39,014 nt of DNA from IMG/VR virus record IMGVR_UViG_2703718823_000011. One strand, written 5' to 3'. Each line of letters starts with the position of its first letter. The stretch's first letter is position 1. This DNA comes from a virus. Its lineage: Duplodnaviria > Heunggongvirae > Uroviricota > Caudoviricetes. The position numbers were made by a program, and so were the translations under genes. Of the stretch, positions 14,890 to 17,912 are shown piece by piece. The notes under the pieces are model-generated. The model did not search any database and was not told where the DNA came from. It saw only the letters and a list, made by a program, of their open reading frames with translations.

Positions 14890-16478
14890 TGGGACGCATA
14901 ATTGATCTTGACGGAAAACCTTTCTCCTTTGACCCGGAGATGCAAAGTACCGCGCTGGATATTCCGCAGATTGCCAGCCGTTATGTTGAGCATCCCGCCT
15001 CGGGTATCACCCCGAACCGGGCGGCGCAGTGCCTTCGCGGGGCTGAACGTGGCGATCTGATTGCCCAGTCCGATCTGGCGGCTGACATTGAAGAAAAGGA
15101 CACCCACCTTTTTGCGGAGCTGGGCAAGCGACGTCTTGCCATTCAGGGGGTGCCATGGAGCATTGAGCCGCCACCGAACGCCAGCGCGAATGAGAAAAAG
15201 GACGCGGAAATGCTCGACGAATATCTGCATTCCGCAGACTGGTTTGATGCCATGCTGTTTGACGCCACGGATGCCATCCTGAAGGGCTATTCCTGCATGG
15301 AAATTGAGCACGGGATGCTCGGTAAAATGCACATCATCCGCGCCATCCGCTGGCGTGACAGCGGGCATTTCTGCCTTAACCCGGATGATTTGAGCGAACT
15401 GCGACTGCGTGACGGCAGCCATGCCGGGGTGGCGTTTCAGCCCTTTGGCTGGATAGTGCATCAGTCGCGTTCACGCACCGGCTACGGTGGTGCGACGGGG
15501 CTTGTCAGAACGCTTATCTGGCCGTTCATTTTCAAAAACTATTCCGTGCGCGATCTGGCTGAATTTCTGGAGGTGTACGGCCTGCCGATGAAGGTCGGTA
15601 AATACCCGTCCGGGGCAACACCGGAGCAGAAAAGCGCCCTGATGCGGGCGGTGATGGATATCGGGCGACGTACAGGCGGGATCATCCCGGCCGGGATGTC
15701 GCTGGAGTTTCAGGCAGCCGCGAACGGTCAGGCCGATCCGTTTGAAACCATGATTTCGTGGGGGGAGCGTTCCATCTCCAAAGCTATCCTCGGCGGCACG
15801 CTGACCACGGAAGCCGGAGACAAGGGCGCGCGCTCGCTGGGTGAAGTGCATAACGAGGTGCGCCGGGAAATCAGGGATTCTGATTTACGTCAGCTGGCCG
15901 CCACGCTGAACCGCGATCTGGTGTATCCGCTGTATGCCCTGAACACCGCCCACGCCATTGATATCCGTCGCCTGCCGCGTATCTGTTTCCAGACAAAAGA
16001 GCCGGGGGATATCACCAAAATCACCAGTGCGGTGATGCAGCTCAGTATGGGGATGGATATTCCTGATCCCTGGGTACGGGAGCAGACCGGTATTCCACAG
16101 CCTGCCCCCGGTGAAGCCATCTTCCGTGTCCGTCAGAGTGGCAATGAACCTGCTCAGACAGACAAAGAGATGCCACCGGAAAAACAGGAGAAGACAGAGC
16201 AGACAGCGCTGGCTGCCAGACTGCCGGAAGCGAAAAGCAGCCCCCGAGATGAACTGGACGACATGGGGGATGCGGTGCCTGCCCGCCGGTTACAGGAGGC
16301 CATCGACCCGGTACTGGAGCCGGTCATTGATGCCATCAGAACGCGGGGGCTGGCGGATGCGCTGGCAGACCTGCCTGCCCTTTATCGTGAAATGGATGAT
16401 TCCCGCCTGATGACGCTGCTCAGTGATGCCATGTTCGCTGCGGAAATGAAGGGGATGCTGGATGGCTCAGGGGATTGA
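14880..16478 (+). CDS. Portal protein (Mu gp29-like)
   Basis: 532 aa following the terminase; track start is GTG, true start may be the ATG at 14940. Confidence 0.8.
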   Translation: MLVVGRIIDLDGKPFSFDPEMQSTALDIPQIASRYVEHPASGITPNRAAQCLRGAERGDLIAQSDLAADIEEKDTHLFAELGKRRLAIQGVPWSIEPPPNASANEKKDAEMLDEYLHSADWFDAMLFDATDAILKGYSCMEIEHGMLGKMHIIRAIRWRDSGHFCLNPDDLSELRLRDGSHAGVAFQPFGWIVHQSRSRTGYGGATGLVRTLIWPFIFKNYSVRDLAEFLEVYGLPMKVGKYPSGATPEQKSALMRAVMDIGRRTGGIIPAGMSLEFQAAANGQADPFETMISWGERSISKAILGGTLTTEAGDKGARSLGEVHNEVRREIRDSDLRQLAATLNRDLVYPLYALNTAHAIDIRRLPRICFQTKEPGDITKITSAVMQLSMGMDIPDPWVREQTGIPQPAPGEAIFRVRQSGNEPAQTDKEMPPEKQEKTEQTALAARLPEAKSSPRDELDDMGDAVPARRLQEAIDPVLEPVIDAIRTRGLADALADLPALYREMDDSRLMTLLSDAMFAAEMKGMLDGSGD

Positions 16479-17787
16479 TTTAGGTTATGCCGCTACCCTT
16501 CCCTCAAAAGAGGCGGTGGCATACTTCCGCGCCAAAGGGGCGCATATCAGCTGGAACTGGTTCGAAACAAACGCAGATGTTCATGCCCGTTCATTCACGG
16601 CGGCAAAAGTGGCACGCCTGGACGTACTGACCACACTACAGGCGGAAGTGCAGCGTGCTGTTGATGAGGGGATTTCACAGAAAGCATTTATCCGCACACT
16701 GACACCCCGCCTGCAAAAGCTGGGATGGTGGGGAAAGCAGATTGTGGTGGACAGCGCCGGTAACGCAGAAGAAGTACAACTGGGCAGTCCCCGCCGACTG
16801 GCGCTGATTTACAACGTGAACACCCGCGTGGCTTACAATGCCGGGCGTTACACGCAGATGATGAACAACACGGAGACGCATCCGTTCTGGCAGTATGTGG
16901 CTGTGATGGACAGCCGCACCCGTCCGGCGCATTCCGCCCTTAACGGGCTGGTATTCCGCTATGACGATCCGTTCTGGAATACACACTACCCGCCCAATGG
17001 CTGGAACTGCCGCTGCCGTGTGCGGCCATTGTCTCAGGCCCGTCTGGATGCGATGGGACTCTCTGTTTCATCTGGTCAGGATCATCTCTCCACCCGCAAT
17101 GTTGAGGCTGGCGTGGATAAGCAGACCGGGGAAGTCAGAGAAATGCCGGTGACCACATATTCAGATGGCACCAGAACCATGACACCGGATGTGGGCTGGT
17201 CATATAACCCCGGTTCGGCGGCGTTCGGCACAGACCAGGCGCTGATCCGTAAACTGATCGAGGTGAAAAGCCCGGCGTTACGGGAAATGGTGGTTCAGGA
17301 GATGAACAACAGCCCGGAGCGGCAGCTGGCGTTCCGCATCTGGGCAAAAAACATCATGAAAACCCGGCGAGGCGGTAACGATATCCGCACGCTGGGCTTT
17401 ATGACCGAAAGTATTGCGCAGGCGGTGGAAAGCCGGACGGGAACGCCACCGGCCCGCCTGCTGGCGATGAGCGGTAAAAATGTGCTCCATGCGGACAGCG
17501 TGAAACATCAGAATGACGGTATCGCCCTGACGCCGGAGGATTTCGGGCGATTACCGGCAATGCTGGCCGCGCCTGATGCCGTGCTGTGGGATAATGTCCA
17601 TCAGAATCTGCTTTACATCACTGAAACCCGTGACGGAACGGCAAAGATTGCCGTCAATGCGCCTTATAGTGTGAAACGTCAGCCGGATAAGCTGGATGTG
17701 GTGATTAATGCCTACAGAGTGAGCAGGAATACTCTGATTGATGCTGTTCAGGGAGGTAAGATGGAGATCCTCGAAGGGAAATTGTAA
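16462..17787 (+). CDS. Mu F-like minor head / head morphogenesis protein
   Basis: 441 aa after the portal; NCRCRVRP motif typical of the Mu F / SPP1 gp7 family. Confidence 0.8.
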   Translation: MAQGIDLGYAATLPSKEAVAYFRAKGAHISWNWFETNADVHARSFTAAKVARLDVLTTLQAEVQRAVDEGISQKAFIRTLTPRLQKLGWWGKQIVVDSAGNAEEVQLGSPRRLALIYNVNTRVAYNAGRYTQMMNNTETHPFWQYVAVMDSRTRPAHSALNGLVFRYDDPFWNTHYPPNGWNCRCRVRPLSQARLDAMGLSVSSGQDHLSTRNVEAGVDKQTGEVREMPVTTYSDGTRTMTPDVGWSYNPGSAAFGTDQALIRKLIEVKSPALREMVVQEMNNSPERQLAFRIWAKNIMKTRRGGNDIRTLGFMTESIAQAVESRTGTPPARLLAMSGKNVLHADSVKHQNDGIALTPEDFGRLPAMLAAPDAVLWDNVHQNLLYITETRDGTAKIAVNAPYSVKRQPDKLDVVINAYRVSRNTLIDAVQGGKMEILEGKL

Positions 17788-17874
17788 GTCGGTGGTGGGG
17801 GTCGAACCCACATAAACATCCTTCGGGTGAAGATATCCCTCAGGTGCCGCTTTACCAGTTAAGAGTACACCGAC
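17788..17874 (-). tRNA. tRNA-like element (class II-like length; isotype not assignable)
   Basis: Minus-strand read GTCGGTG...GTGGG-TTCGACC-CCCAC-CACCGAC: perfect 7 bp acceptor stem and 5 bp T-stem with a TTCGA loop; 87 nt. D and anticodon arms do not fold canonically (best anticodon loop CUGAGGG has a poor stem); no encoded CCA. Confidence 0.35.
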
Positions 17875-17912
17875 CTGCTTTTATTTTAACCAGGTAGTTT
17901 CACGGAGGCAAT

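What the first reader, a model, noticed from the sequence alone, without database searches (positions are those of the whole stretch)
17788..17874. tRNA-like element on the minus strand, abutting the stop codon of the F-like head gene
The 87 nt stretch has a perfect 7 bp acceptor stem (GTCGGTG/CACCGAC) and a canonical T-arm (GTGGG-TTCGACC-CCCAC), but the D and anticodon arms do not fold canonically and there is no encoded CCA. Mu itself has no tRNA here. It could be a degenerate or unusual phage tRNA, a tRNA-derived structural or regulatory RNA, or a relic attachment or priming site. On the + strand the same sequence is a large hairpin followed by a T-run, so it may also act as a terminator after the head-assembly genes.
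Basis: seen in the sequence. Interest (0 to 1): 0.5.

Follow-up and report, generated by a model that had tools for sequence, protein, structure and literature searches.

The report
Anticodon-less tRNA-shaped RNA gene in Mu-like prophage
Between two head genes of a Mu-like prophage sits a small gene for a tRNA-shaped RNA that cannot read codons; the same RNA family occurs next to a Mu-type activator gene in small P4-related islands, including one in the same bacterium, and its function is unknown.

Summary
Window 17787-17875 (minus strand) encodes an 89-nt tRNA-shaped RNA. It scores 30.0 bits against Rfam tRNA in a local scan (cut-off 29). NCBI's pipeline labels the same spot 'tRNA-OTHER' in about 230 E. 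coli genomes. ARAGORN finds nothing.

Across 26 distinct relatives, 13 of 20 stem pairs show compensatory changes. G·U pairs outnumber A·C pairs 54 to 1, so selection acts on the minus-strand RNA and not on a plus-strand hairpin. The acceptor stem (8 bp, including -1:73), the D arm, the T arm and the core tertiary bases are kept. The anticodon arm is replaced by a long closed hairpin. That hairpin differs completely between near-identical prophages and often ends in a UNCG tetraloop, so the RNA cannot decode.

A sigma-70-type promoter (TTGCCT-17-TAAAAT) ends 7 nt before the RNA, and its -10 is kept in 12 of 13 lineages. Promoter-proximal DNA plus RNA gene form a roughly 115-bp insertion that is absent from Mu and from a related prophage.

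The same family forms 2-3-copy arrays after PerC and Mor genes in P4-related integrative islands. One such island is in this window's own host genome.

The terminator idea is not supported. Function is unknown. My best guess is a stable tRNA mimic or scaffold acting in trans.

The parts
17787..17875 (-). tRNA-shaped RNA gene, 89 nt, from G-1 (17875) to U73 (17787).
   Evidence: cmscan RF00005 at 30 bits. Own covariance model R1 scores 92 bits, and this is the only hit in the window. PGAP 'tRNA-OTHER' at the identical coordinates in NZ_CP075697.1.
17868..17875 (-). 5' strand of the 8-bp acceptor helix (G-1, G1-G7).
   Evidence: It pairs with 17787-17794. Seven of the 8 pairs show compensatory changes in relatives, and the -1:73 pair is never broken.
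17849..17867 (-). U8, A9, one extra C, then the D arm: stem UCUU/AAGC and loop AACUGGUA containing A14, A15, G18, G19 and A21.
   Evidence: Rfam alignment. The loop is nearly invariant across the family. The pair at positions 10:25 is G.U in the C-type variants.
17816..17847 (-). Extended hairpin in place of the anticodon arm, 32 nt: GCA-CCU-GA-GGG-[AUAUCUUCA]-CCC-GA-AGG-A-UGU.
   Evidence: 26 nt lie where the tRNA model expects 11. The three base pairs at the foot of the arm covary. The distal part is entirely different in close relatives.
17795..17815 (-). 4-nt variable loop UUAU (U48 is invariant) and the T arm GUGGG-UUCGACC-CCCAC.
   Evidence: The T stem is 100% paired, with 3 covarying pairs. 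The T loop carries U54, U55, C56, G57 and A58.
17787..17794 (-). 3' strand of the acceptor helix (CACCGAC) plus U73. No CCA follows.
   Evidence: Sequence. Base 17787 is also the third base of the F stop codon.
17883..17888 (-). -10 hexamer TAAAAT, ending 7 nt upstream of G-1.
   Evidence: Promoter scan: one site found against 0.3 expected in shuffles. The hexamer is TAAAAT in 11 of 13 lineages and TACAAT in one, while the spacer diverges.
17906..17911 (-). -35 hexamer TTGCCT. It is the complement of the ribosome-binding region of the G gene.
   Evidence: The same bases are present in L063, which lacks the RNA gene, so the -35 existed before the insertion.
17785..17787 (+). TAA stop codon of the F-like head morphogenesis gene; left boundary of the insertion.
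   Evidence: ORF 16462-17787; PGAP 'phage head morphogenesis protein'.
17904..17915 (+). Shine-Dalgarno GGAGG and the ATG of the G-like virion morphogenesis gene; right boundary of the insertion.
   Evidence: ORF 17913-18386. In L063 the F stop codon directly abuts GGAGGCAATATG.

Best explanation
This is a gene for a small, non-decoding, tRNA-shaped RNA.

Transcription (inferred from sequence). The RNA is read from the minus strand, from its own sigma-70-type promoter. That promoter should start transcription at or within about 2 nt of the RNA's 5' end.

Structure (shown by sequence and covariation). The RNA keeps what gives a tRNA its L shape: an 8-bp acceptor helix, a D arm with G18 and G19, the T loop UUCGACC, and the bases for the U8-A14 and A15-U48 contacts. 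The anticodon arm is replaced by a long, closed, irregular hairpin, so the RNA cannot read a codon.

Origin (shown by comparison). It is a moron-like insertion of about 115 bp between the F stop codon and the G ribosome-binding site of an Sp18-type Mu-like prophage. It belongs to a family that also occurs as 2-3-copy arrays downstream of PerC and Mor genes in P4-related integrative islands. One such island is in this very host genome.

How it works (inferred, not shown). The tRNA body makes the transcript fold, and lets it be trimmed and protected like a tRNA. The result is a stable scaffold that carries an exchangeable hairpin. The RNA then acts in trans as a tRNA-body mimic or hairpin carrier towards some protein partner. 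The most plausible setting is the interplay between the Mu-like phage, the Mor-encoding islands and the host. It does not act in translation, as a terminator, or by base-pairing to phage transcripts.

The confidence of 0.65 is for the claim that this is a structurally selected, expressed, non-decoding tRNA-like RNA gene. The specific scaffold/mimic mechanism on its own would rate about 0.3.
For: - Identity. Rfam tRNA at 30.0 bits over the full model, with a 26-nt insert in the anticodon arm. PGAP labels the locus tRNA-OTHER in about 230 genomes.
- Covariation. On 26 distinct sequences, 96.5% of cells are paired, 13 of 20 pairs carry double changes, 0 of 500 shuffles reach the observed values, and slid-partner controls give 40-52% paired. 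RNAalifold run on an unfitted MAFFT alignment recovers the 8-bp acceptor helix and the T arm.
- Strand. 54 G.U pairs against 1 A.C pair.
- Non-decoding arm. Arms span 25-35 nt from G27 to position 43. They are unrelated in sequence between prophages whose G genes are 98-100% identical. Many are capped by UCCG or UUCG.
- Promoter. TTGCCT-17-TAAAAT. The -10 is conserved in 12 of 13 lineages while the spacer diverges. An independent copy in L009 has TTGAAA-16-TAAAAT at the same distance.
- Insertion. The element is absent from L063 and from Mu.
- Second context. Arrays lie in P4-related islands: L090, L093, L097 and L100. Mor and this RNA are the only things these islands share with the window. 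12 of the 14 genomes with the PerC-Mor module have a further match to a composite PerC-Mor plus G-gene query. Co-residence with the Mu-like prophage was seen directly in 4 of them, including the window's own genome.
Against: - There are no expression data of any kind.
- No terminator follows the gene on the minus strand.
- The most distant Mu-like member, L064, has no recognisable -10.
- The island arrays have only an 8-of-12 promoter match, which is below the scan's threshold.
- Some O157-type prophages carry T-loop changes (UUCGCCC, which loses A58; UUCAACC). This suggests relaxed constraint in those lineages.
- No partner protein or target has been identified.
- A decoy would have to compete with the very large cellular pool of tRNA.
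- The 'scaffold plus cargo' idea rests only on the pattern of conservation.
Confidence: 0.65

Rival explanations
1. Plus-strand element. The complement of the cloverleaf, followed by the T-run, acts as an intrinsic terminator, an attenuator or an mRNA processing site between F and G in the late operon.
For: The plus strand folds into a closed multi-branch structure followed by CUGCUUUUAUUUUA.
Against: - The plus-strand fold is no better than shuffled sequence (z = -0.68).
- The terminator scan finds nothing at the site.
- 54 G.U pairs on the minus strand would be A.C mismatches on the plus strand, against only 1 the other way.
- The T-run is the conserved minus-strand -10.
- Mu and L063 join F directly to G, and G lies downstream in the same operon.
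- In the islands the RNA genes are co-directional and tandem.
Confidence: 0.04
2. Decaying tRNA pseudogene, or a leftover of an old recombination or attachment event, carried neutrally.
For: - No anticodon loop, no CCA, and no ARAGORN call.
- T-loop mutants occur in some lineages.
- One copy is split by ISEc8.
- The window prophage carries a pseudogene, so it may be defective.
Against: - Compensatory changes occur in all four helices, and 96.5% of cells are paired.
- The tertiary-core bases are invariant across three unrelated genomic contexts.
- A promoter lies at a fixed distance in independent contexts.
- Arms are replaced by other stable hairpins and are not eroded.
Confidence: 0.1
3. Cis-antisense regulator. 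The minus-strand transcript pairs with the F-G junction of the late mRNA, or its promoter interferes with late transcription, and so tunes F or G expression.
For: The gene lies antisense inside the late operon. Its -35 overlaps the G ribosome-binding site. No terminator follows, so transcription may run on into antisense F.
Against: - The same RNA family sits in islands where it is antisense to nothing.
- A tightly folded tRNA body is a poor pairing partner.
- Selection is on the tRNA fold itself.
- At most, this could be a secondary effect in the Mu-like context.
Confidence: 0.1
4. Trans-acting antisense immunity RNA of the P4 CI / P1 C4 type. In that class a tRNA-like body directs RNase P processing and a loop pairs with target sites in phage transcripts.
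For: - The size is similar (about 80-90 nt).
- The RNA is encoded by phages and P4-related islands.
- The arm is hypervariable and looks like a specificity module.
- From general knowledge, CI and C4 are RNase P substrates.
Against: - No RF01695 match at the locus, even at E <= 10. The same model does find the genuine C4 RNAs in P4 and, about 6 kb from the array, in island L090.
- Model R1 finds nothing in P4.
- Many arms end in 4-nt loops.
- Arms show no complementarity to the phage or the island beyond chance.
Confidence: 0.05
5. A working decoding tRNA with an odd anticodon arm, for example a frameshift or recoding suppressor that uses the 9-nt loop.
For: PGAP/tRNAscan calls it a tRNA, and calls one island paralogue tRNA-Tyr. 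The window copy has a 9-nt loop.
Against: - Arm lengths and loop sizes (4 to 14 nt) differ between near-identical prophages.
- The arm has roughly twice as many stacked layers as a normal anticodon arm.
- No conserved candidate anticodon exists.
- The 'tRNA-Tyr' copy folds into a 6-bp stem with a GUAC tetraloop.
Confidence: 0.02

Closest known systems
Canonical (including phage-encoded) tRNA, Rfam RF00005
   Same: Cloverleaf with acceptor, D and T arms. Bases U8, A14, A15-U48, G18, G19, U54, U55, C56 and A58 are present. It reaches the Rfam gathering score in a local scan, and PGAP calls it tRNA-OTHER.
   Different: There is no 5-bp stem with a 7-nt anticodon loop; a 25-35-nt closed hairpin takes its place. 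The acceptor helix is 8 bp (-1:73). There is one extra base between positions 9 and 10. No CCA is encoded. ARAGORN and the default Rfam pipeline miss it.
P4 CI RNA / P1-P7 C4 antisense RNA (Rfam RF01695, clan CL00128)
   Same: A small stable RNA of temperate phages and satellites, of similar size. From general knowledge, C4 and CI are matured by RNase P because they resemble tRNA precursors. The islands that carry the arrays are P4-related and have their own C4 RNA.
   Different: No covariance-model match in either direction. No target complementarity. It sits at a different place in the island, after Mor and next to the end of the element, not in the immunity region.
tRNA-like domain of tmRNA (SsrA)
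   Same: A tRNA top half whose anticodon arm is replaced by a long irregular helix. From general knowledge (Ranquet et al. 2001, PNAS), Mu prophage induction depends on the tRNA-like function of SsrA.
   Different: It has a complete D arm, no G3.U70 (C3-G70 here), no mRNA-like part or pseudoknots, and its helix is closed by a loop. ARAGORN finds no tmRNA.
Engineered 'tRNA scaffold' RNAs for expression in E. coli (Ponchon and Dardel 2007; general knowledge)
   Same: The same architecture: a tRNA body in which the anticodon arm is replaced by an arbitrary structured hairpin. In E. coli such RNAs are processed and protected like tRNAs.
   Different: This one is natural, lies on mobile elements, and has its own promoter. 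The role of the inserted hairpin is unknown. Processing has not been tested.
Other bacterial tRNA mimics: YrlA (Y-RNA-like) of Salmonella and phages, and 'tRNA-Other' of Bacillus cereus (general knowledge)
   Same: Non-decoding RNAs with a tRNA-like module, which host tRNA enzymes can recognise.
   Different: In YrlA the RNA ends lie in the Ro-binding helix, not in the acceptor stem. There is no rsr/rtcB context here. No Rfam family other than tRNA matches. The lineage and gene neighbourhood are unrelated.

Membership tests
tRNA (decoding; RF00005) | Cloverleaf with acceptor, D and T arms, supported by covariation | tested here: met
   96.5% of cells paired, and 13 of 20 pairs show compensatory changes.
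tRNA (decoding; RF00005) | Score at or above the Rfam gathering threshold | tested here: inconclusive
   30.0 bits against 29 in a local scan with permissive filters. The default whole-window gathering scan gives no hit.
tRNA (decoding; RF00005) | 5-bp anticodon stem with a 7-nt loop (U33, anticodon, purine at 37) | tested here: not met
   26 nt lie where the model has 11. Relatives have irregular 8-11-layer hairpins with loops of 4 to 14 nt.
tRNA (decoding; RF00005) | Recognised by a dedicated tRNA finder | tested here: not met
   ARAGORN finds 0 genes in the window and does not call any family copy in the island loci scanned. PGAP (tRNAscan-SE) gives only 'tRNA-OTHER'.
tRNA (decoding; RF00005) | Unpaired discriminator base and a 3' CCA (encoded in all E. 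coli tRNA genes); aminoacylation | tested here: not met
   Position 73 pairs with -1 in all 26 sequences. The RNA continues UUAC, not CCA. Post-transcriptional CCA addition and charging cannot be tested with these tools.
C4 / P4 CI antisense RNA (RF01695) | Match to the family covariance model | tested here: not met
   No hit at E <= 10. The same model finds the true C4 RNAs in P4 (74.9 bits) and in L090 (79.6 bits).
C4 / P4 CI antisense RNA (RF01695) | Loop complementary to target sites in the element's own transcripts | tested here: not met
   The best complementarity is 10 nt, which 110 of 200 shuffles equal or exceed. 2 non-self matches with up to 3 mismatches against 0.79 expected.
tmRNA | G3.U70 alanine identity pair, a tag reading frame, and ARAGORN detection | tested here: not met
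   The pair is C3-G70. ARAGORN finds no tmRNA.
Intrinsic terminator (plus strand) | Compact G+C-rich hairpin immediately followed by a U-tract, with the structure kept on that strand | tested here: not met
   The scan finds none at the site. z = -0.68. 54 minus-strand G.U pairs would be A.C mismatches on the plus strand.
Moron (independent transcription unit inserted between phage genes) | Precise presence/absence between conserved neighbouring genes | tested here: met
   In L063 and Mu, F is joined directly to G. The element lies exactly between the TAA stop and GGAGGCAAT.
Moron (independent transcription unit inserted between phage genes) | Own promoter | tested here: inconclusive
   Consensus promoter with 9 of 12 matches. 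The -10 is conserved in 12 of 13 lineages. There is no transcript evidence, and L064 has no clear -10.
Moron (independent transcription unit inserted between phage genes) | Own terminator | tested here: not met
   No minus-strand terminator was found in 17500-17787.

The most novel reading that the evidence does not exclude
The family is a natural 'tRNA scaffold' system. Sp18-type Mu-like phages would carry one L-shaped RNA displaying an exchangeable hairpin, and a so far undescribed group of P4-related, Mor-encoding islands would carry arrays of them. Those islands are candidate satellites of Mu-like helpers. The RNAs would serve as specificity or interference tokens in the helper-satellite-host conflict, for example by titrating or recruiting a protein that binds the tRNA body, or by presenting hairpins that a partner's protein recognises. 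A side possibility applies to the Mu-like copies only: their G-1:C73 helix (G-1.U73 in this window) resembles the histidine identity set, so some members might be charged by HisRS without ever decoding.
Probability: 0.15. Interest if true: 0.8.

Novelty: new variant of a known kind. Interest (0 to 1): 0.58.

Why it matters
Automatic annotation already marks this locus 'tRNA-OTHER' in hundreds of pathogenic E. coli genomes, but I found no description of it in the searchable literature. This analysis shows that it is not annotation noise or a dying tRNA.

It is a conserved, structurally selected family that has lost the ability to decode and kept the whole tRNA body. It is shared by only two kinds of mobile element, Mu-like prophages and P4-related islands carrying a Mu-type late activator. 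These often live in the same cell.

If the RNA is expressed, three things follow:
- It would be a natural counterpart of the engineered tRNA scaffold.
- It would be a new class of phage- and satellite-encoded tRNA mimic.
- It would give a handle for testing whether Mu-like phages have satellites.

On the practical side, the 'tRNA-Tyr' calls in these islands are probably mis-annotations.

Tried and rejected
1. ARAGORN on the window and on the island loci found no calls for this family.
2. The default Rfam scan of the whole window found nothing. Only the local scan with permissive filters recovers tRNA.
3. Antisense-target idea. A first RNAduplex scan timed out. A mismatch search for the loop complement gave 2 non-self hits against 0.79 expected. 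An exact-complementarity test of four arms against the window and the co-resident island gave nothing above shuffles. The 10-nt match in gene I (19620-19629) is chance-level.
4. Homology to P4 CI / C4 RNA was rejected.
5. The plus-strand terminator was rejected.
6. Intron-containing or type II tRNA was rejected. The arm is one hairpin, even its base carries a bulge in the A-type variants, and arm lengths vary between 25 and 35 nt.
7. The pattern scan of one-genome-per-species contigs gave a single hit, Citrobacter braakii in the same F/G context. This gives little taxonomic breadth.
8. The phage and plasmid collections held only two Stx-phage records with an inserted Mu-like phage and two E. 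coli plasmid records.
9. The third context (the pheV island of strain Ch1) is unique among 5426 genomes.
10. Eight successful literature searches (one further query was rejected for a too-short term), covering tRNA-like with Mu-like, tRNA-OTHER, Sp18, locus tags and satellites, found nothing about this locus.

Full report
**What is in the sequence.** The minus strand of 17787-17875 reads G-1 | GUCGGUG | UA C | UCUU AACUGGUA AAGC | G | GCACCUGAGGGAUAUCUUCACCCGAAGGAUGU | UUAU | GUGGG UUCGACC CCCAC | CACCGAC | U73. No CCA is encoded. U73 (17787) is the last base of the TAA stop codon of the F-like gene (ORF 16462-17787), and the G-like gene starts at 17913. ARAGORN reports no tRNA or tmRNA, and the default Rfam scan of the window reports nothing. 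A local cmscan gives RF00005 tRNA at 30.0 bits (gathering score 29), E = 1.3e-4, over the full model, with 26 nt where the model expects 11 in the anticodon arm. Neither strand folds better than shuffled sequence (z = -0.93 and -0.68), so thermodynamics alone is uninformative here.

**It is already flagged, but not explained.** The window is a complete Sp18-type Mu-like prophage. It is 100% identical to E. coli STEC2018-607, NZ_CP075697.1. NCBI's pipeline annotates 'tRNA-OTHER' at the same coordinates there and in most of about 230 E. coli genomes that carry this F/G junction. Eight successful literature searches found nothing on the locus.

**Comparative evidence for structure.** I collected variants from three sources: E. 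coli genomes, IMG/VR and metagenomes. The single hit among one-genome-per-species contigs was Citrobacter braakii. A covariance model (R1) aligned 33 hits, of which 26 are distinct.
- 96.5% of pair cells form standard pairs.
- 13 of 20 pairs show changes on both sides.
- 0 of 500 shuffles reach the observed values.
- Sliding the 3' partners drops pairing to 40-52%.
- RNAalifold on an unfitted MAFFT alignment independently returns the 8-bp acceptor helix and the T arm.

The -1:73 pair is GC in 12 sequences, UA in 11 and GU in 3, and it is never broken. The bases needed for the tRNA core are invariant or nearly so: U8, A14, A15 with U48, G18, G19, A21, and U54 U55 C56 R57 A58. In the stems there are 54 G.U cells and 1 A.C cell. 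The structure is therefore maintained on the tRNA-sense strand, which is the minus strand here. This finding rules out the plus-strand hairpin-terminator reading most directly.

**The anticodon arm.** It is always a single irregular hairpin, but its sequence and length are unrelated between otherwise near-identical prophages.
- Window: CCUGA-GGG-(9-nt loop)-CCC-GAAGG.
- O157 Sakai: ACCC-UCAG-GGGU.
- A third type: GCC-UCCG-GGU.
- Others have 8-bp stems with 10-nt loops.
- Several variants are capped by UCCG or UUCG.

L033 has a G gene 100% identical to the window's but a different RNA type, so the RNA gene is exchanged by recombination. No member can present an anticodon. I tested whether the arms are antisense modules and found no complementarity to the phage or to the co-resident island beyond chance.

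**Promoter and insertion.** On the minus strand, TTGCCT (17911-17906), a 17-nt spacer and TAAAAT (17888-17883) end 7 nt before G-1. This was the only promoter-like site in the 600-nt region scanned, against 0.3 expected. In 13 lineages the -10 is TAAAAT 11 times and TACAAT once, while the spacer diverges freely. L064 is the exception. The -35 is the complement of the G ribosome-binding site and is also present in L063. L063 lacks the RNA gene and joins the TAA stop directly to GGAGGCAATATG. In Mu, F and G overlap by 4 nt. The unit is therefore an insertion of about 115 bp that brought a -10 and an RNA gene. It resembles a moron, but no terminator was found.

**A second home for the family.** The metagenome scan found 2-3 tandem copies, each with a different arm, at one end of integrative islands of about 8-10 kb. 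In annotated genomes these islands have the following gene order:
- L097, between yicC and dinD: int, HTH, Icd-like, Toprim, DUF927, PerC, Mor, [tRNA-OTHER, 'tRNA-Tyr'].
- L100, at ileX: int, HTH, ash, Icd-like, RepA helicase, SSB, PerC, Mor, [three copies].

L100 lies in the window's own host genome. The integrase, the attachment site and the replication module differ between the two islands, but the PerC-Mor-RNA array module is shared. Island L090 carries a genuine P4-type immunity region (c4-a1b1, isrK, C4/CI RNA, int-alpA RNA) and P4-like Pfam domains, so these islands are P4-related. Their C4 RNA is a separate gene, and model R1 finds nothing in P4 itself. The only things the island and the Mu-like prophage share are Mor (45% identity) and this RNA (82.6% over 86 nt). 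The 'tRNA-Tyr' call is probably wrong, because that copy folds into a 6-bp stem with a GUAC tetraloop. A third, unique context is a pheV island in strain Ch1. That copy has its own TTGAAA-16-TAAAAT promoter and is split by ISEc8, flanked by the target duplication CTCTTAAC.

**Co-occurrence.** A composite query (PerC-Mor plus the G gene) found 14 records with the PerC-Mor module at 90% identity or more. 12 of the 14 have at least one further match. For four of them (CP075697, CP166879, AP045179, AP045178) the Mu-like F-RNA-G locus was seen directly. The background frequency of the Mu-like locus is about 230 of 5426 genomes. This suggests a helper-satellite relation, by analogy with P4 delta and P2 Ogr, but it is not corrected for shared ancestry of the strains.

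**Interpretation.**
- Shown: a structurally selected, non-decoding, tRNA-shaped RNA gene on the minus strand; a conserved promoter-like site; insertion-type origin; and membership of a family shared by Mu-like prophages and Mor-encoding P4-related islands.
- Inferred: the RNA is expressed; the tRNA body serves folding, processing and stability; the exchangeable hairpin is either an unconstrained plug or a displayed module; and the RNA acts in trans on a protein partner.
- Not supported: terminator, decoding tRNA, C4-type antisense RNA, tmRNA, attachment-site relic.

An 8-bp acceptor helix with G-1:C73 (G-1.U73 in this window) is the geometry of tRNA-His, but the island copies have U-1:A73. A histidine identity could therefore hold only for the Mu-like copies, and it is untested.

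**Verdict.** This is a real and more interesting object than a degenerate tRNA. It is still a variant of a known kind (tRNA mimics of mobile elements), and its function is unknown.

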